Shown here: positions 7,935 to 21,496 of the stretch, piece after piece
How positions within the stretch are numbered: position 1 is the first letter of the stretch
How the letters are laid out: each line of letters opens with the position of its first letter
Source of the DNA: Anaerolineae bacterium
Lineage (GTDB): Bacteria > Chloroflexota > Anaerolineae > UBA4142
DNA length: 42,038 nucleotides
Direction of reading: 5' to 3'
Assembly: GCA_034435315.1 (NCBI GenBank)
Contig: DAOTYB010000194.1
Location: 1 to 42,038, forward strand
Position numbers and translations under genes: made by a program
Notes under the pieces: generated by a model
Database searches by the model: none
Told to the model about the DNA's origin: nothing
The model's input: only the letters and a program-made list of their open reading frames with translations

Positions 7935-9233
<1,299 letters not shown>

Positions 9234-9385: not shown

Positions 9386-9571
9386 AACAGGGAGATGAGT
9401 GGGGTTGTCTCTTTGGGGTGAAAGATTTTTCACCCGTACAACGACGAAATTCAGGCTCAACCATCGGCTTGCGTTAGTCGTCGGTCGCTAACTGACAGCG
9501 AGCGATGCCGGGACTTGTCCCTGGTGGTATTATGCTCTAAATTGCCTGCAAACGCAAGTACCTTTGTCCTA

Positions 9572-9650: not shown

Positions 9651-11318
9651 ATGAGAATTGATCCTGTCGAAAAAAGTACGCTGGCACAATCTGTGGCAGA
9701 ACGCCTTTTGCGTTTGATTGCTGATGGGACTTGTAAGCCCGGCGAAAAAATGCCGTCCGAACGCGAGTTGATGGAACGCCTTCAGGTAGCGCGTTCCACC
9801 GTGCGTGAAGCACTGCAAGCGCTTGCGGCGTCTCACGTCGTCGAGATTCGTCCCGGCGTCGGTACGTTTGTGCGCGAAAATGCGCGCGATCTGATTCCCG
9901 TTGCACTCGAAAGTTTGCGTAACCCGCGCGCAGTTGCAGCATCACGGAGTACATCGGGCGATGGCTCGGAACGCGTACAGGGCGCGGGGGTGAGTCCTTT
10001 GCCGCCTCCACCAGACAAACCGTTGCACATTCCGAATCTCAAAAAAGATCGGCTGGGGACGTTCGAGTTTATTTCGTGGTGGGAACGCAGCAAAGTTCAA
10101 GCCGCGCGTGTGATGGTGGTAGGCGCGGGCGCACTCGGTAACGAGGTGTTAAAAAATCTTGCTTTGATGGGCGTGGGCAACCTGTTCATCGTGGACTTTG
10201 ATACCATCGAAGCCGCCAATCTGAGTCGCTCGGTATTGTTCCGCGCCGAAGACAATGGCAAGAAAAAAGCCGAGGTTGCCGCGCGCCGCGTCAAAGAACT
10301 GAATCCCGATGTGCATGTTCAATATTTTCATGGCGATGTGAATGTTGCACTGGGGCTGGGCATCTTTCGTCGAATGGATGTGATTATCGGATGTCTCGAT
10401 AATCGCGAAGCGCGCCTGTCTATCAATCGCTTTGCGTATCGGTTGAACAAACCGTGGGTGGATGGTGCAATTCAAGAACTCTTTGGCTTGATGCGCGTGT
10501 TCGTCCCCGGGGAAGGAGCGTGCTACGAATGCACACTCACTGAACAAGCGCGCCGCGAAATGTCGTTGCGATACTCGTGCCCCCTGCTGGCGCGGCAAAA
10601 TATCTTGCTGGGCAAAGTGCCGACCACGCCAACCATCTCGGCGATTATTGCGGGACTGCAATCGCAAGAGGCGTTGAAACTCATTCACGGTATGCCGGTG
10701 CAGGCAGGCTATGTGACGCACGTCAACGGTTTGATCAACGAGTTTCACACCACTGCCTACACGCCCGATGAAAATTGTGAGAGTCATTGGATTTACGGAG
10801 ACATTACCGAGTTGCCGAACATCAAAGCCGCGACGACAACAGCAGCGGAACTCTTGCGTATCGCGCGCGAACAACTGGGTCCCGACGCGCTGATTGAACT
10901 CGATCAGGAAATCGTGACCCATCTGGAATGTCATCGTTGCGAAACGCGTACCGCGGTGTACAAACCCATCTCGCAGGTAAGTTACAACGAGGGATTGTGT
11001 CCCGGCTGTGGCGAGTTGCGCGAGGTGCAGATGGCGCACGTCATCACCGGCGATGAGCCGTTTCTGCACCGGACCCTTTTGGCGCTGGGGATTCCGCCGC
11101 TCCACATCGTGCGTGTGCGTAACGAGCACGAGTATCGCTTTTTGGAATTGACCGGCGATCTAGCCGAAACGTTGCACTGGTCGCACTTTGAGGGCGGCGC
11201 GCGTTCAGCGCATGCCGCGCGAGTGCGCTTGCATCCACGTCCGCGCATCAAACTGGGTGAGGTGGTTCAGGTGAACGCGCCGGTCGAACCCAAGCGTCCA
11301 CGAATCGTCGTGCATTAA
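9651..11318 (+). CDS. GntR-family winged-HTH fused to an E1-like (ThiF/MoeB/UBA-type) adenylating enzyme
   Basis: N-terminus LAQSVAERLLRLIADGTCKPGEKMPSERELMERLQVARSTVREALQALAASHVVEIRPGVGTFV is a GntR wHTH. A P/S-rich linker follows, then the Rossmann motif VMVVGAGALGNEVLKNLALMGVGNLFIVDFDTIEAANLSRS, plus CYEC, CHRC and CPGC zinc-type pairs. Start moved from 9564 to ATG 9651. Confidence 0.85.
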   Translation: MRIDPVEKSTLAQSVAERLLRLIADGTCKPGEKMPSERELMERLQVARSTVREALQALAASHVVEIRPGVGTFVRENARDLIPVALESLRNPRAVAASRSTSGDGSERVQGAGVSPLPPPPDKPLHIPNLKKDRLGTFEFISWWERSKVQAARVMVVGAGALGNEVLKNLALMGVGNLFIVDFDTIEAANLSRSVLFRAEDNGKKKAEVAARRVKELNPDVHVQYFHGDVNVALGLGIFRRMDVIIGCLDNREARLSINRFAYRLNKPWVDGAIQELFGLMRVFVPGEGACYECTLTEQARREMSLRYSCPLLARQNILLGKVPTTPTISAIIAGLQSQEALKLIHGMPVQAGYVTHVNGLINEFHTTAYTPDENCESHWIYGDITELPNIKAATTTAAELLRIAREQLGPDALIELDQEIVTHLECHRCETRTAVYKPISQVSYNEGLCPGCGELREVQMAHVITGDEPFLHRTLLALGIPPLHIVRVRNEHEYRFLELTGDLAETLHWSHFEGGARSAHAARVRLHPRPRIKLGEVVQVNAPVEPKRPRIVVH

Positions 11319-11345: not shown

Positions 11346-12197
11346 ATGACGAGTGAATTTTCCAACCGCTGGCAGTTCCGTATCGGTTTTCTGTTGAGCG
11401 CGTTTTCGGGATTTGCCTGGGGGCTTGTACTGGGCTGGGCGCTGGTACGCCTGAACGCCTATCTCTCGGCGTGGCTCACGCTGGGTGTCACGTTGCCGCT
11501 GTTGTTCTGGGGGAGTCTGCTCGCCGGGCTGGGGTTCAACGTGATGTTGCCGCGCTGGCACAAACTGGTGCGCTGGCTGGTCGCCATTCCCATCCTCAGC
11601 GCGGGAAGTTTGTGGGGTATCCTGTGGGCGCTGATTGCCGATGGGATGGACCCTGTCAACCTGATTCGCTCGACGGGCTGGACGCTCTGGCAGTTGGAAG
11701 GGGTAGTGATGCTCGTGGGCTTGCTGGGTGGCATCTATCCGCGCTGGACCCTTCCCTTCTTGCGCCTGCTGGGACATCTGGCGCGTGGAGCGCTGGCTGT
11801 GCCGCTGCACCTGCTCCAGCGTCTGGGCGATGGCGTGTTGTGGCTGCCCCGCCAAATGCTGCGCGCCCTCGCACACGCGCGGGATAACGTGCGAGCCTTG
11901 GTGCCGATGCTTCCTGCGCTGCCATCGTGGAGTGGTCCCGCGTCAACATCGTCTCCCGCGCGCCCACGGACGCGTCGAGTCAAGCCAGCCCAGCCCAGAC
12001 CGGTGCACAATCGCAACAATGATTCGAACGGCGCGCGCATTGTCGCGCACATCGAGGATCGCTGTCCGTATTGCCTGGATGTGATCAAACCAAACGACCC
12101 GCGCGGTGTACGCGTGTGTGAGGTGTGTCACACACCGCATCACGCCGATTGCTGGGCAATCGCGGGCAAATGTCAGATGCCCCATTTGAATCTCTAG
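11346..12197 (+). CDS. Polytopic (about 4 TM) membrane protein with a C-terminal RING-like binuclear zinc finger (Prok-RING-like; candidate E3)
   Basis: Four hydrophobic helices in aa 10-130 and a P/S/R-rich linker. C-terminal pattern is C240-x2-C243-x14-C258-x2-C261-x3-H265-x3-C269-W-x5-C276-x3-H280 (CPYC...CEVCHTPHHADCWAIAGKCQMPH). Confidence 0.75.
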   Translation: MTSEFSNRWQFRIGFLLSAFSGFAWGLVLGWALVRLNAYLSAWLTLGVTLPLLFWGSLLAGLGFNVMLPRWHKLVRWLVAIPILSAGSLWGILWALIADGMDPVNLIRSTGWTLWQLEGVVMLVGLLGGIYPRWTLPFLRLLGHLARGALAVPLHLLQRLGDGVLWLPRQMLRALAHARDNVRALVPMLPALPSWSGPASTSSPARPRTRRVKPAQPRPVHNRNNDSNGARIVAHIEDRCPYCLDVIKPNDPRGVRVCEVCHTPHHADCWAIAGKCQMPHLNL

Positions 12198-12211: not shown

Positions 12212-13069
12212 ATGGCGGACTTGAGTGTAACGCTAGTGTTGCCAACCGGTGGCGCGCGCACGGCGGAGGTGCCGGACGACGTGCCGGTGCGCGAATTGTT
12301 ACCCGAACTCGTTTCCGTACTCGAATTGCCGACCACGGGACCCGACGGCCGCCCAATGGGCTATCGGCTGGATAGCAAAGCCCTGGGGCGAGAACTGCGT
12401 GAGAATGAAACGCTGGCAGCCGCCGGTGTGCCGGCGAACGATCGGCTGATGATTACAGCGGACGTTACGGCGGGCGCGCCGACCGCGCTGGTGAATGCCA
12501 GTCCGCGCTTTCGCCGCCTCAAAGCCGATTACGAAAAAATGCTGGAACTCAAAGCGCATAGCGACATTATTGACTTTGAGGTGGTGGATGTCAAACCCGG
12601 TTTTCCACCCGAAAAGTACATCGTGACGTTCAAATGCAAAAGTATCATCGGCATTGATGCGGCGGGTAATCCCAAATTCGGCGACAAACATCAAGTAGCA
12701 ATTTACTTGCATAACGAATACCCCCATCGCTGGCCCGGTTTGAAATGGCTCACGCCCATCTGGCATCCTAACATCAAAGGGTCGAACGGCAGTGTGTGCA
12801 TTGATGCGGCGTGGTGGACGGCGGCACGCTCACTCGATCGCCTGGTGATTATGCTGGGCGAAATGGCACAGTGGAAAAATTTTCATGATGATCCGACCAA
12901 GCCGCCGTTCCCCTGGGACCTCGAAGCCGCCAAGTGGAGTATGAACTATCGCAAGAAACATCCCGACTTTTTTCCAGTGGACAAGCGTGAACTCTTGCGC
13001 CCCGAACGGGTCAAACTCAAAACCGCGCCGACCACAGCCAAATCCAAACCCAAAATCAAGTTGAAATGA
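12212..13069 (+). CDS. Ubiquitin-like domain fused to a canonical UBC-fold E2 (HPN motif + catalytic Cys)
   Basis: GGAGG SD 4 nt upstream of ATG 12212. Residues 1-88 are 81 percent identical to the free Ubl and end in the same TADVTAG. The E2 core is YPHRWPGLKWLTPIWHPNIKGSNGSVCID (Cys196 codon at 12797-12799) plus an N-terminal RFRRLKADYEKMLEL helix. Confidence 0.88.
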   Translation: MADLSVTLVLPTGGARTAEVPDDVPVRELLPELVSVLELPTTGPDGRPMGYRLDSKALGRELRENETLAAAGVPANDRLMITADVTAGAPTALVNASPRFRRLKADYEKMLELKAHSDIIDFEVVDVKPGFPPEKYIVTFKCKSIIGIDAAGNPKFGDKHQVAIYLHNEYPHRWPGLKWLTPIWHPNIKGSNGSVCIDAAWWTAARSLDRLVIMLGEMAQWKNFHDDPTKPPFPWDLEAAKWSMNYRKKHPDFFPVDKRELLRPERVKLKTAPTTAKSKPKIKLK

Positions 13070-13115
13070 TTTCGACCATACGGTCGTAATCGAAAAATCC
13101 AAACGGAGGTGCCCA

Positions 13116-13382
13116 ATGGCAGACGTGCCTGTAACGCTGGTTCTTCCGGCCGGTGGCTCGCGTACCGCCGAAGTACCCAACGATGTACCCATCAAGGACT
13201 TGTTGCCCGAACTCACTTCATCCTTGCAACTCCCCACCACGGGACCCGATGGCCGTCCGATGAGTTATCGGATTGACAGCAAGGCATTGGGGCGTGAACT
13301 GCGCGAGGATGAAACGCTCGAATCCGCCGGCGTGCCCGCAAACGATCGGCTGATGCTGACAGCGGATGTGACCGCCGGCTAG
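13116..13382 (+). CDS. Free ubiquitin-like (beta-grasp type) protein, 88 aa, ending in Gly
   Basis: GGAGG SD 6 nt upstream. Sequence MADVPVTLVLPAGGSRTAEVPNDVPIKDLLPELTSSLQLPTTGPDGRPMSYRIDSKALGRELREDETLESAGVPANDRLMLTADVTAG then stop. Paralog of the N-terminal domain of the E2 fusion. Confidence 0.85.
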   Translation: MADVPVTLVLPAGGSRTAEVPNDVPIKDLLPELTSSLQLPTTGPDGRPMSYRIDSKALGRELREDETLESAGVPANDRLMLTADVTAG

Positions 13383-13447: not shown

Positions 13448-14566
13448 ATGTCATCGGCTGGGGTAGCCGCCACACCTTTTCACGCGCTGGCGATCGTCGC
13501 ATCACACAACGCCGATGCCGCGCCGATGCTGTACGAACTACAGAGTGAATCCACGACCATCGGCTCGGCAGAGGATAACGCGATCGTTCTGGTGGATGCC
13601 AGCATTGCGCCGCATCACTGCACCGTGCGTCGTCAAGGCGAGTCCGTGTATCTTCTGGTGGATGTGGGCGAACGTCTGCGCGCGCGCGCGGATACGTGGG
13701 ACACCGCACTTCCCGGCGACACCTATTGGTGTCCCCGTCACGGCAAGGTGGAACAACTGGATGCGCGCCGGTGGTGTGCCCAGTGCAAACGTCGGCGCGG
13801 TTCGTTGTGGTTGATGCGTCCACTCCACCCGGGCGATACGTTCGAGATTGGCGCGGCGTTTCGGGCGACCTATGTGGTGCACGAGCGCGAGGGAGAAGCG
13901 CACGATGCGTCTTCTCCGTTATCGCACCCGTTAGCCCCTGCCCCAGCGCGCTCCATCTCACTCATACCAGCCGAAACGTCTTTGCCGGTGCGTCCCCCGC
14001 CGCGCGACGACTCGAATGTATGGTGCTGGCAACCTGAAGGCGTACCCTTTCCCATCTACTTGCACCAGCGCGTCAATCTCCACGTCACGCAGCATGCGCG
14101 CCAGAATATGGATCGCGAAGTTGGGGGTGTTTTACTCGGCGAGGTGGGGCTGGATGAGCAGGGGCAAATGTACGTCTATGTGACGCACGCTATCAAAGCC
14201 GAGTTCACCACCGAAGCGCGCGGACACCTCACCTTTTCTCATCGCACCTGGTTGCAGATTCATTCGATTCACCAGACGTTGTATCCCGACAGACTGATTG
14301 TCGGATGGTATCACACGCATCCGGGGTGGACGATTTTTCTCTCGCCGTGGGATTTGTTCATCCATCGAAATTTTTTCAAACAGCCCTGGCAGATTGCGCT
14401 TGTGATTGATCCGACGCTGGATCGCGCCGGCTTTTTCGTGTGGAAGGACAATCAAATCGCCAGTCCGCATCAGCCGATTGCTCCCTTTCGTCTGGCAGAA
14501 CTCGACTACTGGATGGAACTATTCAAACCGCGCGTGCGCGTCAAACTGACCGATACGGCGCGCTGA
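13448..14566 (+). CDS. FHA-like domain (with Cys/His insert) fused to a JAMM/MPN+ metalloprotease (candidate deconjugating/processing enzyme 1)
   Basis: FHA-like STTIGSAEDNAIVLVDASIAPHHCTV...VYLLVDVG ... GDTFEIG with insert WCPRHGKVEQLDARRWCAQCKRRRG. JAMM motifs are REVGGVLLGEV and GWYHTHPGWTIFLSPWD (HxHx7Sx2D). Confidence 0.85.
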   Translation: MSSAGVAATPFHALAIVASHNADAAPMLYELQSESTTIGSAEDNAIVLVDASIAPHHCTVRRQGESVYLLVDVGERLRARADTWDTALPGDTYWCPRHGKVEQLDARRWCAQCKRRRGSLWLMRPLHPGDTFEIGAAFRATYVVHEREGEAHDASSPLSHPLAPAPARSISLIPAETSLPVRPPPRDDSNVWCWQPEGVPFPIYLHQRVNLHVTQHARQNMDREVGGVLLGEVGLDEQGQMYVYVTHAIKAEFTTEARGHLTFSHRTWLQIHSIHQTLYPDRLIVGWYHTHPGWTIFLSPWDLFIHRNFFKQPWQIALVIDPTLDRAGFFVWKDNQIASPHQPIAPFRLAELDYWMELFKPRVRVKLTDTAR

Positions 14567-14580
14567 TAGAAGGAGGTAAA

Positions 14581-15231
14581 GTGTTGCGGGTCAAACTAGG
14601 AGGCACTGTACCCAGCCCCATCATCGAACGACCGATGCCACTGGCTCAAGCGTTGCAGTGGGTCTCGCCGTACGAGGCGGAGGTGGCAGCGCAGGTGCGC
14701 ATCTTTTTCACGCAATCCGCTTATCGCCGTTGTGCGGAACATACGCAAAGCGATTTGGACCACGAAGTGGGAGGCGCGCTCGTGGGCGAGGTATGTTACG
14801 ACGCGCTCTATGCGCAGACGTACATCGTGATTCAAGACATCCTCCCCGCTCTCTTTGCGCGCGCGGGCGAAACGCATCTGACCTTTACACAGGACACGCT
14901 GGTTGATTTCAATAACCAACTGGAGGCGCGTTTTCCGGACAAACGGATTGTGGGATGGTATCACACGCATCCGCGTCTGGGAGTGTTCTTATCGGGATAC
15001 GATACTTTTTTGCATCGGCATTTTTTTCCTGACCCGAATCAAGTAGCACTCGTCATTGATCCGGCGGCACAGCAGGCGGGCTTTTTTTGCTGGCAACGTG
15101 ACGCCTCGCTCGATCCGCGGCGCTATGTCGGTTTCTATGAGGTGAGCGATCTGGACGAGTACAGCATCGTCGAGTGGGAGAATCTCACACCAGCGGTCTC
15201 GGTGCAGACGCCAGAAAGTGAGGCACAATGA
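14581..15231 (+). CDS. Stand-alone JAMM/MPN+ metalloprotease (candidate deconjugating/processing enzyme 2)
   Basis: AGGAGG at 14571-14576, then GTG 14581 (ATG 14635 is an alternative). Motifs HEVGGALVGEV and GWYHTHPRLGVFLSGYD. Clear paralog of the C-terminal half of the previous gene. Confidence 0.85.
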   Translation: MLRVKLGGTVPSPIIERPMPLAQALQWVSPYEAEVAAQVRIFFTQSAYRRCAEHTQSDLDHEVGGALVGEVCYDALYAQTYIVIQDILPALFARAGETHLTFTQDTLVDFNNQLEARFPDKRIVGWYHTHPRLGVFLSGYDTFLHRHFFPDPNQVALVIDPAAQQAGFFCWQRDASLDPRRYVGFYEVSDLDEYSIVEWENLTPAVSVQTPESEAQ

Positions 15232-16088
15232 GTTTACGAATGCGGGCGTACTATTACGCGATTCTGGGCGCGATCGGCGCGCTCATTGGTGGACGTATCG
15301 GCGATACGATTGGTTTTGTGCACGGGATGAATGTGTATGTGAGTGATGTCATCCTCGGCGCGATTCTGGGGTTGAGTATCGGTGTGTTGATTGGTGCCAG
15401 CGAGGGTTTGCTGGAGCGCTCGTGGTATCGCACGCTGCGCGCCGCTCTGGTGGCGGGCAGCATTGGCATGGTGGCAGGCGCGGTGGGCTTGCCCATCGGC
15501 GAGTTGGTGTTTCAACTCTCCGGCGGCGAACTCGTTGGACGTGCGCTGGGGTGGGCGCTGTTCGGTTTGCTGATTGGCTGGTCGGAAGGCTACATCACCG
15601 GAGCACAGGCGTGGAAAGGCGCGCTGGGCGGCGTGGTGGGGGGAACCATCGGCGGGGTCATTTTGTTTCTCCTGCAATCTCTCTTCGGTGCCTCGGAGTT
15701 GGGCAAGATTCTGGGCTTGAGCGTGTTGGGCGCGGCGGTGGGTGCGTTCATTGCCTTGATTGTGGTGATCCTCTCGCGCGCGTGGCTCGAAGTCAAAACG
15801 GGTAAACTCAAAGGCAATGAATTCATCCTCGACAAATTCTTGCCCACACACGGACCCGCCGCGATTATCGGCAGTAACGATTTCAAAGCGGACATTGCAC
15901 TCCCCGACCCGGCGATTGCACCCCAACATGCGCGCTTGAAAGGCGCGGGCACACACTTTGTGATTGAGGATATGAGTGTGGGCAAAGGAACGTTCGTGAA
16001 TGGTCGCAAAGTGGAAACAGCGCGCTTGACGAACAACGCGGTCATTCGTCTGGGCAACACCGAGTTGGTGTACCACGAGCGACGTTAA
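15228..16088 (+). CDS. Gly-rich polytopic membrane protein with a C-terminal FHA domain
   Basis: ATGA start/stop overlap with the upstream JAMM gene. N-terminal glycine-zipper-like helices. C-terminus AIIGSNDFKADIALPDPAIAPQHARLKGAGTHFVIEDMSVGKGTFVNGRKVETARLTNNAVIRLGNTELVY. Confidence 0.85.
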   Translation: MSLRMRAYYYAILGAIGALIGGRIGDTIGFVHGMNVYVSDVILGAILGLSIGVLIGASEGLLERSWYRTLRAALVAGSIGMVAGAVGLPIGELVFQLSGGELVGRALGWALFGLLIGWSEGYITGAQAWKGALGGVVGGTIGGVILFLLQSLFGASELGKILGLSVLGAAVGAFIALIVVILSRAWLEVKTGKLKGNEFILDKFLPTHGPAAIIGSNDFKADIALPDPAIAPQHARLKGAGTHFVIEDMSVGKGTFVNGRKVETARLTNNAVIRLGNTELVYHERR

Positions 16089-16199: not shown

Positions 16200-17414
16200 A
16201 TGAGAAAGTTTATCGTCTTCTGGATGTGGGTGTGCGTGTTCGGCTGGCTTGCTGCGACGGGGGTGCAGGCGCAAGCGCAGGTGAATATCCGCGTGACGCA
16301 AGTGGATACCTCGCGCTTTCCACAGGTGGACGTGTACATCTCGGTCACGGATGCCAGCGGCAATCCCGTGCGTCACATTTCCCCGAGCGCCTTTCGCGTG
16401 ACGGAGAATGGCGCAGAAATGTCGCTGACCAGCGTCACGCGCGCGGGTGAGCAAGGCGCGGTCAACACTATCTTGATTATTGATCGCAGCGGCAGTATGG
16501 CGGCGGGCGACAAGATGGTCGCGGCGAAACAAGCGGCGAGTACCTTTGTCAATTTGATGCGCCCCGGCGACAAGACCGCGTTGATCCAGTTCGATACCGA
16601 AATCGAGACACTGCAAACGTTCACGGATGACAAAGCCAGGTTGTTGGCGGCGATTCAAAAAATCTTTCCGCGCGGCAATACCGCGCTGTACGATGCGCTG
16701 GATCACGCCGCGCGCTATTTCGAGACGGTGCAGGGACGCAAAGCCATCATCGTGCTGACCGACGGTATGGATACAGCAAGCAAACTGGGGCGTGAAGCGA
16801 TTGTGCAACGTGTGAGTCACGGTGGCTTTTCGGTTTACACCGTGGGGCTGGGTGCCCGCAATACGGCGTATGGCAGTCAAGAAGGCGTTGACGAGGAGAT
16901 TTTGCGTGAACTGGCAAACGTGACCTATGGCAATTACTACTACAGTCCCGATGGCAGCCAGTTGAGTGAACTGTATCAACAGTTGTCGTTCCTGCTCCAG
17001 AACGAATACAAACTCACCTACCTTTCACCCAATCCTTTGCGCGATGGCGTCAAGCGCAACATTGTGGTCACGGCGATGGGCGCCGGCAGTACACGCACCG
17101 AGTTCAATCCCGGTGGCGTCATTCCCGAAGTGGCAACGCAGGCGACCTCGTGGATCCTCTTTTTCGTCGTGCTGGCGGTGTTGCTCGCGCTGTTACTCGT
17201 TCCTGCGGCAATACACCTGCTCCGCGCGCGCGGGGTGGCGCTGCCGACTGTGCCCACGTCTGCGTCAGCGCCGCAGAAACCGAGTCGTATCAAATTGACC
17301 GGTGAGGCTCCACCGGCAGGAACGGCGCAACCTAAATCGCGCATCAAGATCAAACAATCATCCAGCGACACCGCGCGCCCGATGCCGTGGGATGAAAATC
17401 CAGATGGACATTGA
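16200..17414 (+). CDS. Secreted vWA-domain protein with a C-terminal TM anchor and a Lys/Ser/Thr-rich cytoplasmic tail
   Basis: Signal peptide MRKFIVFWMWVCVFGWLAATGVQAQA, MIDAS motif IIDRSGSM with downstream T and D, TM helix WILFFVVLAVLLALLLVPAAIHLL, and a tail with two PxSRIK motifs. Confidence 0.85.
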   Translation: MRKFIVFWMWVCVFGWLAATGVQAQAQVNIRVTQVDTSRFPQVDVYISVTDASGNPVRHISPSAFRVTENGAEMSLTSVTRAGEQGAVNTILIIDRSGSMAAGDKMVAAKQAASTFVNLMRPGDKTALIQFDTEIETLQTFTDDKARLLAAIQKIFPRGNTALYDALDHAARYFETVQGRKAIIVLTDGMDTASKLGREAIVQRVSHGGFSVYTVGLGARNTAYGSQEGVDEEILRELANVTYGNYYYSPDGSQLSELYQQLSFLLQNEYKLTYLSPNPLRDGVKRNIVVTAMGAGSTRTEFNPGGVIPEVATQATSWILFFVVLAVLLALLLVPAAIHLLRARGVALPTVPTSASAPQKPSRIKLTGEAPPAGTAQPKSRIKIKQSSSDTARPMPWDENPDGH

Positions 17415-17479: not shown

Positions 17480-18511
17480 ATGTCGAACGTATTTGAACAG
17501 ATGCCCGATGTAGGCAAAAAGAAACCCACGAGTGCCGCCAAGACGCCCAGTCGCACACCGCTGGTGGTGGGAGCACTCGCCGTATTTTTAATGCTGTTGT
17601 TGTGTGCGTTGCTGGCTGGTGGCGGCTATTGGCTCTGGTCGTCTCAGCAGGGCAGCCCCGTCGCTCTATCTCCAACGCCCGGCGTCAAGTTCGCACAGCC
17701 GGTTATGCCTGTCGGAGGCCGCGTCCGCATCGCCTTTAGTGTCGAGCGCGGGGGGCGCCCTGAAGACAAGTTCGTGTGGATAATGAACGCCGATGGGAGT
17801 GATGCCAGGCAGGTGCTCAAGAATGCGTCTTCGCCCGCTCTTTCGCCGGACGGTTCGTTGATTGCCTACTATCACTGGAACGAGGGCATTCACGTGGCGA
17901 ATGTCAATGGGACCAACGCGCGCAAGATCGTGGGCGAAGCGCATGCCAAGTATCTCGCCTGGTCGAATGATGGCAAATGGATTGCCTTTTCCTCGCAACC
18001 GATTCTGGATCGCACGGTGCTGGTCAACATTGATGCGGTGCGCGTGGATGGTAGCGGGCGGCGTACCATCGTTTATGGCGGTACGCAACCGTCGTGGTCG
18101 CCGGACGACAAGTACATTGCGTTTGCTACTTGTCGCGGTTCCGATTGTGGCATCTACAAAGCCAGTTCGGCAGGCGGAGATGCCGGTACTCCCATCACTA
18201 AAGATTTGGGAACGAACCCCGCTTGGTCACCCACAGGCAATCAGATTCTATATCAGGCTGATGTGGACGGGGTCAAGCACTTGTTTGTTGTGAACGTGGA
18301 TGGTAGTGGCAAACGTCAACTCACGTGGGGTACTTCGCCGCGCGTGGGCGCGCAATGGTCGCCGGACGGAAGTGCCATCTACTATCGCGCGCTCGAAGAT
18401 GGAGTGTGGAGCATCTGGCGAATGAATGCAGATGGCTCGAACCCTGTCCGCATCGCTACCGATGTACCACCTGTTGATTGGGCGTACGAACGCCTGGCGC
18501 TGAGTCGCTAA
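17480..18511 (+). CDS. N-terminally anchored TolB-like beta-propeller protein (PD40/WD40-like repeats)
   Basis: GGGAGG SD upstream of ATG 17480. Short basic cytoplasmic tail, TM helix, and repeated SPDG / WSPD / DGS blades (ALSPDGSLIAY, AWSNDGKWIAF, SWSPDDKYIAF, AWSPTGNQILY, QWSPDGSAIYY). Confidence 0.85.
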   Translation: MSNVFEQMPDVGKKKPTSAAKTPSRTPLVVGALAVFLMLLLCALLAGGGYWLWSSQQGSPVALSPTPGVKFAQPVMPVGGRVRIAFSVERGGRPEDKFVWIMNADGSDARQVLKNASSPALSPDGSLIAYYHWNEGIHVANVNGTNARKIVGEAHAKYLAWSNDGKWIAFSSQPILDRTVLVNIDAVRVDGSGRRTIVYGGTQPSWSPDDKYIAFATCRGSDCGIYKASSAGGDAGTPITKDLGTNPAWSPTGNQILYQADVDGVKHLFVVNVDGSGKRQLTWGTSPRVGAQWSPDGSAIYYRALEDGVWSIWRMNADGSNPVRIATDVPPVDWAYERLALSR

Positions 18512-18748: not shown

Positions 18749-21496
18749 CTACTGCTTCTGTCCCGTTGCCTTCATCAACTCTTCCAGCGTTTGTTGCAGC
18801 CCCTGCATCTCTTTGCCGTACGTTGCCCAATCGCCGGTCTTGAGCGCGTCTTGTGCGCGCGCATAGTGATCGTTCGCTTTCTTGACGAGGGCGTTGACGC
18901 TGGTCGGCGTGTCGGTGCTGGGCGTGGTTGGCGCTGCGACGACGCTGGCGCCCGCGCCGAAAATGCGCGCGAGCGACTCGCCGAGGGTTGGCTCCATCAC
19001 GACGTTGTTCGTCGTGGCGACCACGACGCGTTTCAACTGCGGTATCTGCGATTGTTCCGCAAGCAGATACATCGGTTGAATGTAGAGAAGCGATTTTTCG
19101 ATGGGGATGACGAGCAAATTCCCCCACAGCACGCGACTGCCGCGCTGACTGAGGAGCGTCAGTTCTGCCGAAATCTTGGGGTCCTGATTCAGGCGCGCGT
19201 GAATTTGTTCAGGACCGTACACCAACTTGTCCTTGGGAAAACGATACACCAGGCGTTTGCCGTAATCCGCGCCATCGCTCTTGGCCGACATCCATGCGAC
19301 CATATTTTGACGCTTGGCTGGGGTGAACGGCAACATCAGCATAAATTCTTCCTTCGGATCGCTGGGCAAACGCATAATCACATAGTACGGCTCCATTGGA
19401 TTGGGACGACCGTCCGCCGATTCGTTTGGAAATGCCCACAGGTCTTCTTTGTTGTAAAAGACCAGCGGGTCTTGCATATGATATGTGCGATACATCGCGG
19501 CTTGAATCGTGAACAAGCCTTCGGGATAGCGCAAATGATCGCGCAGCGTGGCAGGCATTTGCTCCATCGGCTTGAAGAGCGCGGGAAAGATCGCGCGATA
19601 CGCGCGCAGAATCGGCTCGTCCGGTTCCGCGATGTAAAACGTCGTCGTGCCATCGTACGCGTCAATCGCAATCTTGACCGAGTTGCGAATGTAGTTGAGG
19701 TTGCGTTGATACGGTTCGCTGTAGGGATATTGACCTGTGAACGTGTAGGCGTCTTGTAGCCATACGATCTTGCCATCGGCGATGACGGCGTATGGATCCT
19801 TGTCCAGCATCAAAAAGGGCGCGATGCGCCGCACGCGCGTCTGAATGTGCCGATTGAACAGCACGCGGCTTTCGTTGGTGAGCGCATCGGTGAGCAAGAT
19901 ATTCATATCGCCAAAGCGCAGCGCGAACATCAAGCGATCCCAGTACGAGCCAATGGGCACACCGCCGGTGCCTTCGTACGTCGTGAACGCGTTCTCATCG
20001 CCTCTGGGATAATCGAATTCTTTTTCGCGCGTCTTGACAAAGACGTAATCGGTCGTCTCTTCACCAAAGTAGATCTGGGGGCGCGTCACGGGAATGACGC
20101 CAGTCGGTGGAATATCTTTGACGAGCAAATTCGGCAGACCATCGGCAGTGAATTCGTTGACGGGACTGACTGCCACGCCATAGCCATGCGTATAGACCAG
20201 ATGCAAGTTGACCCACGTCTGCGCTTTTTCAGTCAACTTCCGCGTGGCTAGTTCGCGCACGCTTACCATCACCTGACGATAGCGGTCACCGATGCGGTAG
20301 CGATCCACATCCACATCACTGAATTCGTAGTACGTGCGGATAGATTGAATTTGATTGTACGTTTGCAACAGCGGACGATAATCCTGCAAACGAATGTTGT
20401 TGATGGTCTCGGCGTTGCGCTGAATATCGGTGGCGGTGAGCACATCCTCGGCAGGATAGGGCGCGTCCTGAATCGTATCGAGCGCGTACGCGCGACGCGT
20501 CAACGTGATGTTGTGTTTGATGTACGGCTCTTCCTTGACAAACTCGTTCGGCTTGACCTCGAAATTCTGCACGACGCCCGGATAAAATTCACCCAGCACG
20601 AGCGCGGCAAGAATCCAGAGCGCGACCGCAATACCAATCGCTTTGAGCGCGCGCACAAAAACGTTGACGAGCAGCAACACCGCCAGCGCGAGCGCGAGAA
20701 TCGTGAGGATGTTGTAGGCGGGAATTTGCGCGTTCACGTCGGTGTAACTGGCGCCAAAGACCACACCGCGCGGTGAAAAGACGAGTTCGTACTTGTCGAG
20801 TTGGTAACTCCACGCGTTGAGCAACAAAAACAGAAAACCGAGAAACGACAGATGCGCCTTGACCGCGTTCGTCCACTGAATTCGCCCCAGTCCCATCAAG
20901 TACGTCGCGCCCGTGGCGAACGCGGCAAGCACAATCGCGCTGCCAATCCAACTGACCAGAAAGCGATAGATGGGCAGGGTGAAAACGTAGAACGCCACAT
21001 CCTGATTAAAAATCGGATCGGTGACGCCGAACGGCGCGGCGTTGGCAAAGCGCAAAAACGCCAGCCAGTTGTTTTGCGCGAGCATCCCCACGATGAACGC
21101 GAGCAACAGTCCGGCGGAAACGAGCAGGAACGTGATGGATTTGCCAGCGAACATCGCCAGTTGCGTCCAGCGCGACGATTCGTCCGCAAAGCGTGGCGTG
21201 AGTCGTCGCGCGATGGCGATGTTGATGATGTAGAACACAAAGAACACGAGCGCCGCGCCGAAAAAGATCGCGACGCGCGCGTTCAGTTCGGTCACAAAGA
21301 CCGAGGTGTAACCGACTTCTTCGAACCAGCGATAATCGGTATAGAGACGCGGTAGAATCGAAAACAAAATCCACAGCAAGAAAAATGCTGTGACCAACAA
21401 AATCGGTCGCCGCAAGTTCGGTGATGGACGACGCAACACATCGTCCCAATCCACCTCAGGCGCGGCGCGCCGTCCGCGATAAAAAGCCATTGTCAC
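18749..21496 (-). CDS. UPF0182-family large polytopic membrane protein
   Basis: 915 aa with an N-terminal multi-TM region containing YTDYRWFEEVGYTSVF, a large soluble domain, and a C-terminal ALKTGDWATYGKEMQGLQQTLEEL typical of the family. Confidence 0.85.
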   Translation of the reverse strand: MTMAFYRGRRAAPEVDWDDVLRRPSPNLRRPILLVTAFFLLWILFSILPRLYTDYRWFEEVGYTSVFVTELNARVAIFFGAALVFFVFYIINIAIARRLTPRFADESSRWTQLAMFAGKSITFLLVSAGLLLAFIVGMLAQNNWLAFLRFANAAPFGVTDPIFNQDVAFYVFTLPIYRFLVSWIGSAIVLAAFATGATYLMGLGRIQWTNAVKAHLSFLGFLFLLLNAWSYQLDKYELVFSPRGVVFGASYTDVNAQIPAYNILTILALALAVLLLVNVFVRALKAIGIAVALWILAALVLGEFYPGVVQNFEVKPNEFVKEEPYIKHNITLTRRAYALDTIQDAPYPAEDVLTATDIQRNAETINNIRLQDYRPLLQTYNQIQSIRTYYEFSDVDVDRYRIGDRYRQVMVSVRELATRKLTEKAQTWVNLHLVYTHGYGVAVSPVNEFTADGLPNLLVKDIPPTGVIPVTRPQIYFGEETTDYVFVKTREKEFDYPRGDENAFTTYEGTGGVPIGSYWDRLMFALRFGDMNILLTDALTNESRVLFNRHIQTRVRRIAPFLMLDKDPYAVIADGKIVWLQDAYTFTGQYPYSEPYQRNLNYIRNSVKIAIDAYDGTTTFYIAEPDEPILRAYRAIFPALFKPMEQMPATLRDHLRYPEGLFTIQAAMYRTYHMQDPLVFYNKEDLWAFPNESADGRPNPMEPYYVIMRLPSDPKEEFMLMLPFTPAKRQNMVAWMSAKSDGADYGKRLVYRFPKDKLVYGPEQIHARLNQDPKISAELTLLSQRGSRVLWGNLLVIPIEKSLLYIQPMYLLAEQSQIPQLKRVVVATTNNVVMEPTLGESLARIFGAGASVVAAPTTPSTDTPTSVNALVKKANDHYARAQDALKTGDWATYGKEMQGLQQTLEELMKATGQKQ

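What the first reader, a model, noticed from the sequence alone, without database searches (positions are those of the whole stretch)
12212..13382. Ubl fused in frame to its own E2, next to a free paralogous Ubl that stops exactly at the fusion junction
Seen directly: residues 1-88 of the E2 protein and the 88-aa free Ubl are colinear, with 17 differences (about 81 percent identity). Both end in ANDRLM(I/L)TADVTAG. The free gene has a stop codon right after this Gly. In the fusion, Gly88 (12473-12475) is followed by APTALV... and the UBC core.

Inference, two options: (a) the fusion is a precursor processed by one of the two adjacent JAMM proteases to release a Gly-terminated Ubl, analogous to eukaryotic ubiquitin fusion precursors; or (b) it is a permanent cis-Ubl that mimics or regulates an E2~Ubl state. 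The C-terminus is a single Gly (TAG), not GG.
Basis: partly seen in the sequence, partly recalled or inferred. Interest (0 to 1): 0.85.

Follow-up and report, generated by a model that had tools for sequence, protein, structure and literature searches.

The report
Ubiquitin-like protein fused to E2
A soil/groundwater bacterium (class Anaerolineae) carries a complete eukaryote-style ubiquitin-tagging gene cluster in which one copy of the tag is made as the front end of its own conjugating enzyme, most likely to be clipped off by a neighbouring protease, while a second ready-made copy sits next door; the fusion idea is already known from other bacteria, but the strictly conserved fused-plus-free pair is a new twist.

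Summary
Window 12212-13069 encodes an 88-residue ubiquitin-fold domain joined by an 8-residue linker to a canonical E2 with the HPN motif and a catalytic Cys. Window 13116-13382 encodes a free 88-residue paralogue, 71/88 identical, that stops right after the same Gly.

The pair is not an assembly artefact. All 83 related loci examined carry it, in Anaerolineae genomes. The two copies form separate orthologous groups, with dN/dS 0.15 and dS about 1.

The cluster is a Caldiarchaeum-type cascade: E1, membrane RING E3, Ubl-E2, Ubl, Rpn11-like JAMM, plus FHA, vWA and PD40 membrane proteins.

- The D-[IV]-T-A-G tail is invariant in both copies.
- The residue after Gly is always small (A/G/S in 80 of 81).
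- The linker is variable and predicted disordered.
- Some relatives have only the fused Ubl, or short propeptides after the Gly.
- BubAB/BubCD and CsUb/CsRpn11 are experimental precedents.

Cleavage itself is untested here. Ubl-E2 fusions with predicted JAB release are already published, so this is a new variant of a known kind. Interest is moderate.

The parts
9651..11318 (+). E1: N-terminal GntR-type winged helix fused to a ThiF/E1 adenylation domain with a C-terminal zinc-ribbon region. The ORF opens at 9564, but homologues align from about residue 27-29, so the likely start is the ATG at 9651.
   Evidence: Pfam ThiF E = 4e-57 and GntR E = 3e-21. The best solved relatives are the eukaryotic E1 active adenylation domains UBA7, UBA1 and SAE2, E = 8e-29 to 1e-24, ahead of ThiF and MoeB. 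Cys339 (RYSCP, ORF numbering from 9564) and the CxxC pairs are invariant in 77 orthologues. Start codon checked.
11346..12197 (+). Membrane protein (about 3 hydrophobic segments) with a C-terminal prokaryotic RING finger: the candidate E3.
   Evidence: Pfam Prok-RING_1, 29.9 bits against a cut-off of 29.1, residues 237-276. Hydrophobic segments. Present directly upstream of the Ubl-E2 gene in nearly all of the 83 loci; in L043 and L052 the hit order is RING, E1, and on L068 the E1 lies off the short contig.
12212..12475 (+). Fused Ubl domain (residues 1-88 of the Ubl-E2 protein), ending D-V-T-A-G88.
   Evidence: Pfam YukD E = 3.6e-12. AlphaFold model has beta-beta-alpha-beta-beta-3/10-beta topology with pLDDT 85-94. 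Tail invariant in 81 orthologues.
12476..12499 (+). Linker APTALVNA between Gly88 and E2 helix 1. The predicted JAMM cleavage site lies between codons 88 and 89 (12475|12476).
   Evidence: pLDDT below 50 for residues 87-92. Length is 5-10 residues, with 62 distinct sequences among 81 orthologues. The first residue is A 52, G 16, S 12, V 1.
12500..13069 (+). E2 (UBC) core with WHPNI and catalytic Cys196 (SVCID), then a disordered basic tail ending KPKIKLK.
   Evidence: Pfam UQ_con E = 7e-10. H185 is nearly invariant, and P186, N187 and C196 are invariant, across 44 sequences down to 31% identity. Foldseek matches Ube2K, UbcH5 and Rad6, with target-normalised TM-score about 0.7 for the UbcH5- and Rad6-class E2s (about 0.5 for the longer Ube2K), probability 1.00. 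phmmer against PDB E2s gives E = 5e-10.
13116..13382 (+). Free 88-residue Ubl paralogue, with the stop codon immediately after Gly88.
   Evidence: 81% identical to the fused copy. AlphaFold pLDDT 93. The best Foldseek matches are ubiquitin, Caldiarchaeum ubiquitin 6fj7 (27% identity, TM 0.68-0.74), SUMO1 and the bacterial Ubl 8tyx. In every locus where the gene is intact it ends exactly at Gly.
13448..14566 (+). FHA domain fused to a JAMM/MPN+ metalloprotease. The motif EVGG...HTHPGWTIFLSPWD is intact.
   Evidence: Pfam JAB E = 7e-13 and FHA E = 8e-7. Motif read directly. Present only in the sub-clade at 80% identity or more to the window (12 of 83 loci).
14635..15231 (+). Stand-alone JAMM/MPN+ metalloprotease (EVGG...HTHPRLGVFLSGYD). 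This is the universal JAMM of the cluster and the best candidate for the processing and deconjugating enzyme.
   Evidence: Pfam JAB E = 3e-8. Best solved relative is the Caldiarchaeum Rpn11 homologue 6fjv/6fnn, E = 2e-8, followed by eukaryotic Rpn11. Present in every locus that extends far enough, all but the 2.9-kb contig L009. Start at 14635 inferred from the 198-aa orthologue in L001 and the ATG.
15228..16088 (+). Four-segment membrane protein with a C-terminal FHA domain.
   Evidence: Pfam FHA E = 9e-13. Hydrophobic segments. Conserved in nearly all loci long enough to show it.
16200..17414 (+). Signal peptide, vWA domain, one membrane helix and a basic cytoplasmic tail carrying two R/K-I-K-L/I motifs.
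   Evidence: Pfam VWA E = 1e-20. Hydrophobic segments. Tail motif seen in 66 of 77 orthologues.
17480..18511 (+). Single-pass membrane protein with a PD40/TolB-like beta-propeller. Accessory: the locus scan found it in about 12 of the 83 loci, almost all in the sub-clade closest to the window.
   Evidence: Pfam PD40 E = 1.5e-23. Distribution. Start codon.

Best explanation
The locus is a chromosomal, vertically inherited ubiquitin-type conjugation system of Anaerolineae. Its parts are an E1, a membrane-anchored RING E3, a canonical HPN-Cys E2, an Rpn11-like JAMM protease and two paralogous ubiquitin-fold modifiers.

The Ubl-E2 protein is a precursor. A JAMM protease cuts the exposed linker immediately after Ala87-Gly88. 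The universal stand-alone JAMM (14635-15231) is the most likely enzyme, possibly also the FHA-JAMM (13448-14566). Cutting releases (i) an 88-residue Ubl with a free Gly carboxylate that the E1 can adenylate, and (ii) an E2 whose N-terminal helix 1 is now unencumbered.

The downstream gene supplies a second Ubl isoform that needs no processing. Both isoforms are then passed from E1 to E2, and with the RING protein onto targets at the membrane. The JAMM also reverses the modification.

The fusion arose by loss of the stop codon between an adjacent Ubl gene and E2 gene, which is the ancestral order E1-Ubl-E2-JAMM. The free copy downstream of E2 is a later, clade-specific duplicate.

Shown here: the sequences, folds (as models), catalytic motifs, conservation pattern and synteny.

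Inferred: cleavage, which protease does it, charging of either Ubl, and any functional difference between the two isoforms.
For: 1. Both copies keep the same invariant tail D84-[IV]85-T86-A87-G88 across 80 genomes, and A87-G88 persists in fused homologues down to about 31% identity. A tail needed only by E1 and a protease would not be kept in a purely structural domain.

2. Conservation collapses right after Gly88. The linker is 5-10 residues, 62 distinct sequences among 81, and its first residue is A, G or S in 80 of 81. For the closest solved JAMM relative, CsRpn11, a small residue after the scissile bond is required and bulky ones block cleavage (PMC6043591, read).

3. AlphaFold gives two confident domains joined by a pLDDT<50 segment at residues 87-92.

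4. Relatives with only a fused Ubl within +/-8 kb exist: L111, L112, L117 and L084, with hmmsearch --max at E <= 50 finding no other Ubl. There the fused Ubl must be released if anything is to be conjugated.

5. In the wider family most loci have the Ubl and E2 as adjacent separate genes, and about a dozen Ubls carry 1-14 residue extensions after ..AG. JAMM-dependent maturation is therefore a family trait.

6. The stand-alone JAMM's best PDB match is CsRpn11 (E = 2e-8), which cleaves the CsUb precursor and CsUb-GFP fusions (PMC5654768; PMC6043591). Both JAMM motifs in the window are intact.

7. Experimental precedent: Type I Bub BubAB, a Ubl-E2 fusion, is cut by the JAB domain of BubCD right after the conserved Gly (PMC11601596). 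Published prediction: JAB release of the Ubl from Ubl+E2 proteins in bacterial tri-ligase systems (PMC7159879).

8. The pair is real and old. It is present in 83 of 83 loci. Fused copies are nearest to fused copies of other genomes (79 of 80) and free to free (80 of 80). dN/dS = 0.15.
Against: No cleavage, charging or conjugation has been observed for this family. All support is comparative.

A ready-made free Ubl is always present, so the system does not strictly need the fused copy as a modifier. This leaves room for a non-modifier role.

The fused copies evolve somewhat faster (mean pairwise identity 77% against 83% for the free copies).

Distant relatives (P0178, P0217, P0262) show that uncleavable Ubl-E2 fusions do exist in the superfamily.

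The penultimate residue is Ala. In CsRpn11 assays a Gly-to-Ala change at that position slowed cleavage, so specificity must have co-evolved.

The single-chain AlphaFold model gives no reliable information on Ubl-E2 domain contacts (pTM 0.61, no error matrix available).
Confidence: 0.68

Rival explanations
1. Permanent cis-Ubl. The N-terminal Ubl is never removed and works as a built-in regulatory or binding module of the E2. It might act as an acceptor or 'backside' ubiquitin that promotes chain building, as a mimic of the E2~Ubl state, or as a docking module for the E1, RING or JAMM. The free Ubl would then be the only true modifier.
For: A free, mature Ubl is always encoded next door, so the fused one is dispensable as a modifier. 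The two paralogues have been kept distinct, with paralogue-specific residues at positions 5, 15, 27, 35, 36, 42, 50, 81 and 85. Lys27 is conserved only in the free copy (71 of 79) and is Arg or His in the fused copy, which would fit protection of a tethered domain from self-modification. Uncleavable Ubl-E2 fusions exist in distant relatives (P0178, P0217, P0262).
Against: A permanent domain has no need for an invariant D-[IV]-T-A-G tail identical to that of the conjugatable paralogue, for a small residue after the Gly in 80 of 81 cases, or for a hypervariable disordered linker. The relatives that do look permanent have lost exactly these features. Fused-only loci exist.
Confidence: 0.12
2. Zymogen-like licensing. 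The fusion is cleaved, but the selected function is control of the E2 rather than supply of modifier. With a Ubl only 5-10 residues in front of helix 1, which is the E1- and E3-binding face in canonical E2s, the uncut protein is inactive. JAMM activity then gates the whole cascade. That activity is possibly itself controlled through FHA/phospho-threonine signalling at the membrane.
For: The linker to helix 1 is short. A JAMM fused to an FHA domain and a second membrane FHA protein lie in the cluster. A free Ubl needing no processing is present, so the only step made protease-dependent is release of the E2. The role of helix 1 in E1 and E3 binding is established knowledge for eukaryotic E2s, not tested here.
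Against: Most members of the clade have only the plain JAMM without an FHA domain. Many relatives have an unfused E2, so licensing is not a general requirement. No structural evidence here shows that the Ubl occludes helix 1. This reading is a refinement of the best explanation, not exclusive of it.
Confidence: 0.15
3. Artefact or decaying fusion. The in-frame junction is a sequencing or assembly error, or a recent neutral stop-codon loss with no function.
For: Adjacent separate Ubl and E2 genes are the commonest arrangement in distant subfamilies, so a single base change could create such a fusion.
Against: The fusion is present in the top 120 homologues from many independent projects and in all 83 loci. 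It has conserved junction features, and dS is about 1 between the paralogues.
Confidence: 0.01

Closest known systems
Caldiarchaeum subterraneum ubiquitin operon (Ub precursor, E1, E2, small RING E3, Rpn11-like JAMM), reconstituted in vitro (PMC5654768, PMC6043591)
   Same: It has the same five component types. The Ubl model is closest to CsUb and ubiquitin (27% identity to 6fj7). The JAMM is closest to CsRpn11. The E1 is closest to eukaryotic E1s. The E2 has HPN plus Cys. The modifier is made as a precursor that a JAMM must trim after the terminal Gly.
   Different: Here the 'propeptide' is the whole E2 enzyme, and a second, already mature Ubl paralogue is encoded as well. The tail is Ala-Gly, not Gly-Gly. 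The RING is on a multi-pass membrane protein. The E1 carries a GntR DNA-binding domain. FHA, vWA and PD40 membrane proteins are part of the operon. The host is a bacterium (Anaerolineae).
Type I Bub (formerly 6E.1) operons: BubAB Ubl-E2 fusion cleaved by the JAB domain of BubCD (PMC11601596, PMC11601603)
   Same: An N-terminal Ubl is fused to an E2-fold domain, with a conserved Gly at the junction. A JAB/JAMM peptidase encoded in the same operon cuts right after that Gly, as shown experimentally for Citrobacter.
   Different: The Bub E2 uses Ser with His and Asp and forms oxyesters. The JAB is fused to the E1. There is no RING. A DUF6527 serine protease is present. Bub Ubls have 1-3 beta-grasp domains. 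No separate free paralogue is described. None of these Bub-specific features is present here.
Bacterial 'tri-ligase' Ubl systems with a Ubl+E2 protein, E1, prokaryotic RING and JAB (Burroughs et al. 2011; Kaur et al. 2020, PMC7159879)
   Same: They share an E1, a prokaryotic RING-type E3, a JAB and one protein that combines a Ubl with an E2. Release of the Ubl by the JAB was predicted from sequence.
   Different: The described versions are embedded in FtsH/vWA-MoxR ternary conflict systems. They carry an EAD1 adaptor in front of the Ubl and a caspase-like effector. Here there is no EAD1, MoxR, FtsH or effector, the neighbours are housekeeping genes, and a conserved second free Ubl is present. 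The 2011 paper could not be read, so overlap with it cannot be excluded.
Eukaryotic ubiquitin fusion precursors (UBA52, RPS27A, polyubiquitin)
   Same: The modifier is translated as the N-terminal part of another functional protein and is released by a specific protease after the terminal Gly. Fused and other gene forms co-exist in one genome.
   Different: The partner is a ribosomal protein, not the conjugating enzyme. The proteases are mostly cysteine DUBs. The ubiquitin moieties are identical, whereas here the two copies are diverged paralogues (74% mean identity).
ThiS-ThiF fusions with a second solo ThiS (Iyer et al. 2006, PMC1779556, Table 1 row 1)
   Same: A Ubl-fold protein is fused to an enzyme of its own pathway while the same operon also encodes a solo paralogue.
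   Different: That is a sulfur-carrier pathway. The fusion partner is the E1-like adenylase, not an E2. There is no protein conjugation and no RING.

Membership tests
Eukaryote-like E1/E2/RING/JAMM ubiquitination operon (Caldiarchaeum type; prokaryotic tri-ligase systems) | Beta-grasp modifier ending in a C-terminal Gly | tested here: met
   Pfam YukD (ubiquitin clan) hits. AlphaFold pLDDT 93. Foldseek top matches are ubiquitin, CsUb and SUMO1 at probability 1.00. The stop codon follows Gly88 directly.
Eukaryote-like E1/E2/RING/JAMM ubiquitination operon (Caldiarchaeum type; prokaryotic tri-ligase systems) | Gly-Gly at the modifier C-terminus | tested here: not met
   The tail is Thr-Ala-Gly, invariant in both paralogues in 80 genomes. 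Distant relatives also have xAG.
Eukaryote-like E1/E2/RING/JAMM ubiquitination operon (Caldiarchaeum type; prokaryotic tri-ligase systems) | E2 with UBC fold, HPN motif and catalytic Cys | tested here: met
   UQ_con. WHPNI is conserved: H185 is nearly invariant, and P186, N187 and C196 are invariant, across 44 sequences. Foldseek and phmmer match canonical E2s.
Eukaryote-like E1/E2/RING/JAMM ubiquitination operon (Caldiarchaeum type; prokaryotic tri-ligase systems) | E1 adenylation domain with a conserved candidate catalytic Cys | tested here: met
   ThiF domain. Best PDB hits are UBA7, UBA1 and SAE2. Cys339 in RYSCP is invariant in 77 orthologues. Its catalytic role is inferred.
Eukaryote-like E1/E2/RING/JAMM ubiquitination operon (Caldiarchaeum type; prokaryotic tri-ligase systems) | RING-type E3 encoded in the operon | tested here: met
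   Prok-RING_1 at 29.9 bits against a cut-off of 29.1, so only just over threshold. The Cys/His pattern is conserved in orthologues (tails). Marked 'weak' in the precomputed annotation of homologues.
Eukaryote-like E1/E2/RING/JAMM ubiquitination operon (Caldiarchaeum type; prokaryotic tri-ligase systems) | Rpn11-like JAMM/MPN+ protease with an intact E...HxH...S..D motif | tested here: met
   Pfam JAB. Best PDB hit is CsRpn11, then Rpn11. The motifs EVGG / HTHPRLGVFLSGYD and HTHPGWTIFLSPWD were read.
Eukaryote-like E1/E2/RING/JAMM ubiquitination operon (Caldiarchaeum type; prokaryotic tri-ligase systems) | ATP-dependent isopeptide conjugation of the modifier to proteins | not testable with these tools
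   Needs biochemistry or proteomics.
Type I Bub (6E.1) | Ubl-E2 fusion with a conserved Gly at the junction | tested here: met
Type I Bub (6E.1) | E2 with catalytic Ser plus His and Asp, no Cys | tested here: not met
   Invariant Cys196 in an HPN-type active site.
Type I Bub (6E.1) | JAB peptidase fused to the E1 (BubCD), and a DUF6527 serine protease (BubE) | tested here: not met
   The E1 is fused to GntR, not to a JAB. The JABs are separate genes. None of the nine cluster proteins hits DUF6527. No PADLOC model hits the Ubl-E2.
Bil (bacterial ISG15-like) defence system | BilA/BilB/BilC/BilD protein families | tested here: not met
   Only a superfamily-level BilD hit for the E1 (E = 3e-8, 66 residues). 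There are no BilA, BilB or BilC hits. There is no defence-island context and there are no viral contigs.
YukD (type VII secretion Ubl) | Association with ESX/T7SS genes (FtsK-like EssC, WXG100), and no conjugation machinery | tested here: not met
   The Pfam YukD model matches above threshold. However, the neighbours are E1, E2, RING and JAMM, with no T7SS genes. The tail ends in a conserved Gly. The YukD label is fold-level only.
FtsH-ternary conflict system with tri-ligase Ubl module (Kaur et al. 2020) | EAD1 adaptor on the Ubl, vWA-MoxR-FtsH core and a caspase-like effector | tested here: not met
   The Ubl starts at residue 1 of the fusion. There are no AAA+ (MoxR, FtsH) or caspase domains among the cluster proteins. 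The vWA here is an extracytoplasmic single-pass membrane protein.

The most novel reading that the evidence does not exclude
This would be a two-modifier bacterial ubiquitin system. The fused and free Ubls are functionally distinct tags, kept apart for the whole history of the clade.

The fused one is delivered 1:1 with its E2 and makes E2 activation depend on the JAMM protease. It lacks the Lys27 that only the free paralogue conserves, so it could act as a chain starter or cap, or be protected from self-modification. The free one is the bulk, chain-competent modifier.

Together with a membrane RING, FHA, vWA and PD40 proteins, and a shared basic docking motif on the E1, E2, FHA-JAMM and vWA tails, this would be a housekeeping, membrane-centred ubiquitin signalling pathway in free-living bacteria rather than an anti-phage module.
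Probability: 0.25. Interest if true: 0.75.

Novelty: new variant of a known kind. Interest (0 to 1): 0.45.

Why it matters
Bacterial ubiquitin-like conjugation has so far been characterised in anti-phage modules (CBASS Cap2, Bil, Bub). This cluster is a full eukaryote-type cascade: canonical HPN-Cys E2, RING E3, Rpn11-like protease and a ubiquitin-fold tag. It sits among housekeeping genes and is inherited across at least several hundred Anaerolineae species (419 species-level genomes matched the search).

If the fusion is processed as predicted, it gives a clean and tractable bacterial model for three things:
- ubiquitin precursor processing;
- how an E2 can be made protease-dependent;
- how two paralogous tags share one E1/E2/E3 set, a situation otherwise known from eukaryotes.

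It also documents the route by which such fusions arise, namely stop-codon loss between adjacent Ubl and E2 genes. This bears on the origin of eukaryotic ubiquitin fusion genes. The biological targets, presumably membrane proteins, are unknown.

Tried and rejected
1. Assembly or sequencing artefact: rejected.

2. Gene conversion keeping the paralogues alike: rejected. Fused copies cluster with fused and free with free across genomes.

3. Membership of Bub, Bil, YukD/T7SS or the FtsH-ternary systems: each fails defining features.

4. Phage or defence-island origin: no viral contigs, no PADLOC models for the Ubl-E2, Ubl or RING proteins, and housekeeping flanks.

5. The 'LRVKLGG' string upstream of the second JAMM looked like a ubiquitin-tail mimic. 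It lies in the intergenic region before the true start at 14635, so it was dropped.

6. Charge co-variation between the Ubl and the E2 C-terminal motif: the overall correlation (Spearman -0.78) is only a contrast between two clades, and within the diverse set there is none (rho 0.08). It is not used as evidence.

7. Technical dead ends:
- Burroughs et al. 2011 and 2012 are not held.
- The first metagenome query alignment was too diverse.
- Several literature searches failed on the 3-character rule.
- The profile search of the Ubl against PDB sequences gave only weak per-domain matches to ubiquitin, so fold assignment rests on Pfam plus AlphaFold/Foldseek.

8. Multimer modelling of JAMM with Ubl-E2, or of E1 with Ubl, is not possible with the single-chain tool.
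Full report
**Observation**

The window encodes, on the + strand, a 285-residue protein (12212-13069) and an 88-residue protein (13116-13382). BLASTP aligns residues 1-88 of the first with the whole of the second: 71/88 identities, no gaps, E = 2e-50. Both end ANDRLM(I/L)TADVTAG. In the free gene the Gly codon is followed by TAG. In the long gene Gly88 (GGC, 12473-12475) is followed by APTALVNA and then SPRFRRLKADYEKM, the first helix of a UBC domain. Both genes have a GGAGG ribosome-binding site.

Pfam finds a ubiquitin-clan beta-grasp (the YukD model) in both proteins and UQ_con in the long one. At the DNA level the copies are 75% identical, with most differences at third positions. dN/dS = 0.15 and dS is about 1.0.

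**Folds**

An AlphaFold model of the fusion (pLDDT 85) has three parts:
- a beta-beta-alpha-beta-beta-3/10-beta domain at residues 1-84;
- a segment with pLDDT below 50 at residues 87-92;
- a confident UBC core followed by a disordered tail at residues 272-285.

Foldseek matches the E2 part to Ube2K, UbcH5 and Rad6. A separate model of the free Ubl (pLDDT 93) is closest to ubiquitin, to Caldiarchaeum subterraneum ubiquitin (27% identity), to SUMO1 and to a bacterial Bil Ubl.

The E2 has WHPNI and Cys196. P186, N187 and C196 are invariant, and H185 nearly so, in 44 sequences down to 31% identity.

**The cluster**

All genes are co-directional.

| Gene | Coordinates | Product |
|---|---|---|
| E1 | 9651-11318 | GntR winged helix + E1 adenylation domain |
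| RING | 11346-12197 | multi-pass membrane protein with Prok-RING_1 |
| Ubl-E2 | 12212-13069 | fused Ubl and canonical E2 |
| Ubl | 13116-13382 | free 88-residue paralogue |
| FHA-JAMM | 13448-14566 | FHA domain + JAMM metalloprotease |
| JAMM | 14635-15231 | stand-alone JAMM metalloprotease |
| TM-FHA | 15228-16088 | membrane protein with C-terminal FHA |
| vWA | 16200-17414 | signal peptide, vWA, one membrane helix, basic tail |
| PD40 | 17480-18511 | single-pass membrane protein with beta-propeller |

The E1's best solved relatives are the active adenylation domains of eukaryotic UBA7, UBA1 and SAE2 rather than ThiF or MoeB. It has an invariant Cys in an RYSCP motif just after the first CxxC. 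The stand-alone JAMM's best solved relative is the Caldiarchaeum Rpn11 homologue, followed by eukaryotic Rpn11. Both JAMM motifs are intact.

The system is therefore of the eukaryote-like, Caldiarchaeum type. It is not of the Bub, Bil or CBASS types. PADLOC and NCBIfam have no model for the Ubl-E2, the Ubl or the RING protein. No viral contig encodes a relative. The flanks are housekeeping genes: isocitrate dehydrogenase, UPF0182 and LytR in the window, and the L11-L1-L10-L7/L12 ribosomal operon in L002 and L003.

**Is the pair conserved?**

The fusion architecture is found in all of the best 120 homologues (1851 have E <= 1e-3). A scan of one genome per species found 419 genomes with a relative. 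The best 80 are all Chloroflexota/Anaerolineae MAGs apart from one labelled Acidobacteriota.

A script over these 80 plus three earlier loci found the order E1, RING, Ubl-E2, Ubl, JAMM, TM-FHA, vWA in essentially every locus long enough to show it. There was exactly one fusion and one free Ubl in 81 of 83 loci, and every intact free Ubl stops right after Gly. The two exceptions are trivial. L042 has a 100-N gap that still ends ...ACCGCCGGCTAG, and L070 has a frameshifted copy.

The FHA-JAMM, the second JAMM and the PD40 protein occur almost only in the sub-clade at 80% identity or more to the window. Everywhere else a single plain JAMM serves.

**History of the two copies**

Fused Ubls are nearest to fused Ubls of other genomes (79 of 80), and free Ubls to free Ubls (80 of 80). 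Mean identity is 77% among fused copies, 83% among free copies, and 74% between the two copies of one genome. The duplication therefore predates the clade and there is no gene conversion.

Paralogue-specific positions are 5, 15, 27, 35, 36, 42, 50, 81 and 85. Lys56 is invariant in both copies. Lys27 is conserved only in the free copy (71 of 79) and is Arg or His in the fused copy. Both proteins are strongly acidic, with net charge about -7.

In more distant subfamilies recovered from metagenomes, the commonest order is E1, a free Ubl ending ..EVTAG, a separate E2 immediately downstream, then one or two JAMMs. The fusion is thus best explained as loss of the stop codon between adjacent Ubl and E2 genes. 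The fused copy occupies the ancestral position, and the free copy downstream of the E2 is a clade-specific addition (inference).

**Precursor or permanent domain?**

Five lines of comparative evidence favour a precursor.
- The tail D84-[IV]-T-A-G88 is invariant in the fused copy just as in the free one. Ala-Gly is kept in fused homologues down to about 31% identity.
- Conservation collapses right after Gly88. The linker is 5-10 residues, with 62 distinct sequences among 81, yet its first residue is A, G or S in 80 of 81. CsRpn11 tolerates only small residues after the scissile bond, and bulky ones abolish processing (PMC6043591).
- The linker is the one low-confidence segment between two well-predicted domains.
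- Loci exist in which the fused Ubl is the only Ubl within +/-8 kb, even at the most permissive HMM settings (L111, L112, L117, L084). About a dozen free Ubls in the wider family carry 1-14 residue extensions after the Gly. JAMM-dependent maturation is therefore a family habit.
- Distant relatives whose Ubl runs straight into E2 helix 1 (P0178, P0217, P0262: '...LLLWAAYPRE...') have lost both the Ala-Gly and the linker. This shows what a permanent fusion looks like.

Experimental precedents exist. BubAB is cut by the JAB domain of BubCD after the conserved Gly (PMC11601596). The CsUb precursor and CsUb fusions are cut by CsRpn11 (PMC5654768; PMC6043591).

Against the precursor reading: nothing has been measured for this family, a mature free Ubl is always available, and the fused copy evolves slightly faster. 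My estimates are:
- about 0.68 that the fusion is a JAMM-processed precursor yielding a conjugatable Ubl;
- about 0.15 that cleavage occurs but mainly serves to license the E2;
- about 0.12 that the Ubl is permanent.

**Comparison with what is known**

The Ubl-E2 fusion as such is not new. Iyer et al. 2006 listed polyUbl-E2-like fusions, and also ThiS-ThiF fusions accompanied by a solo ThiS. Kaur et al. [quoted passage not shown] Ye et al. 2024 demonstrated cleavage for BubAB.

I did not find the following described in the literature available to me:
- the strictly conserved pairing of a fused Ubl with a diverged free Ubl;
- the housekeeping-like chromosomal setting in Anaerolineae;
- the membrane RING, FHA, vWA and GntR-E1 accompaniments.

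The key 2011 paper could not be read, so prior description cannot be excluded. I classify the finding as a new variant of a known kind, of moderate interest.

**Seen in passing**

A short strand-like motif of alternating basic and aliphatic residues, matched as [RK]-[IVL]-[RKH]-[IVLF], closes the tails of several cluster proteins:
- the E2 (78 of 82);
- the E1 (72 of 88 ORFs);
- the FHA-JAMM (10 of 10);
- the cytoplasmic tail of the vWA protein (66 of 77).

It is absent from the RING, plain JAMM, TM-FHA and PD40 proteins. Distant E2s end in a related G-I-x-[ILF]-[LG] motif preceded by acidic residues. This looks like a shared docking peptide whose receptor is unknown.

Some distant family members combine these domains with TIR-like and Hint-like modules.

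Noticed in passing
window 13043-13066 (E2 tail KPKIKLK); 11220-11315 (E1 tail RPRIKLG...KRPRIVVH); 14525-14563 (FHA-JAMM tail KPRVRVKLTDTAR); about 17300-17380 (vWA tail KPSRIKLTG, KSRIKIKQ): A short motif of alternating basic and aliphatic residues, matched as [RK]-[IVL]-[RKH]-[IVLF], ends the cytoplasmic tails of four proteins across the clade: the E2 (78/82), the E1 (72/88 ORFs), the FHA-JAMM (10/10) and the vWA protein (66/77). It is absent from the RING, plain JAMM, TM-FHA and PD40 proteins. Distant E2 relatives end in a related ..DD[LF]GI[NK][IL][LG] motif. It is probably a shared docking peptide. The receptor is unknown; one guess is the very acidic Ubl (net charge about -7).
   Followed up: partly
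proteins P0178, P0262, P0160, P0150 (relatives found, sequences): Distant members of the same E2 family have striking architectures. P0178 has an apparently uncleavable Ubl + E2, then a second Ubl ending ..ATVAG followed at once by 'CFLESARVLLPDG', which looks like a Hint/intein-type autoprocessing domain, then a TIR-like C-terminus. P0262 is Ubl-E2 plus a TIR-like domain. P0160 has Ubl + TIR-like + JAMM + E2 in one chain. P0150 is E2 + FHA. Domain calls here are by eye only.
   Followed up: no
window 9651-9980 (N-terminus of the E1): The E1 carries an N-terminal GntR-type winged-helix DNA-binding domain (Pfam E = 3e-21). It is also present in the orthologues in L001 and L002. A DNA-binding domain on a ubiquitin-activating enzyme is unusual. 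It may autoregulate the operon or tether the E1.
   Followed up: no
window 13448-14566 and 17480-18511; loci L001, L004-L014 versus L015-L083: The FHA-JAMM fusion and the PD40 beta-propeller membrane protein are accessories almost confined to the sub-clade at 80% identity or more to the window. All other members make do with one plain JAMM. Two FHA domains in one cluster suggest an input from Ser/Thr phosphorylation.
   Followed up: partly
free Ubl residue 27 (window 13194-13196) versus fused Ubl residue 27 (12290-12292): Both Ubls are lysine-poor (2-3 Lys). Lys56 is invariant in both. Lys27, at the start of the helix, is conserved only in the free paralogue (71/79) and is Arg or His in the fused one. 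This may bear on chain formation or on avoiding self-modification of the tethered domain.
   Followed up: partly
L002 1-7317 and L003 410-2780; window 7935-9233 (-) and 18749-21496 (-): The genomic setting is housekeeping, not a defence island. In L002 and L003 the cluster follows the ribosomal L11-L1-L10-L7/L12 operon. In the window it lies between isocitrate dehydrogenase and a UPF0182 membrane protein.
   Followed up: partly
L094 1-1131: A short metagenomic contig shows two Ubl reading frames with 6- and 14-residue extensions after ..EVTAG, followed by a third Ubl fused to the E2. This may be a poly-Ubl arrangement or frameshift errors. It was not resolved.
   Followed up: no
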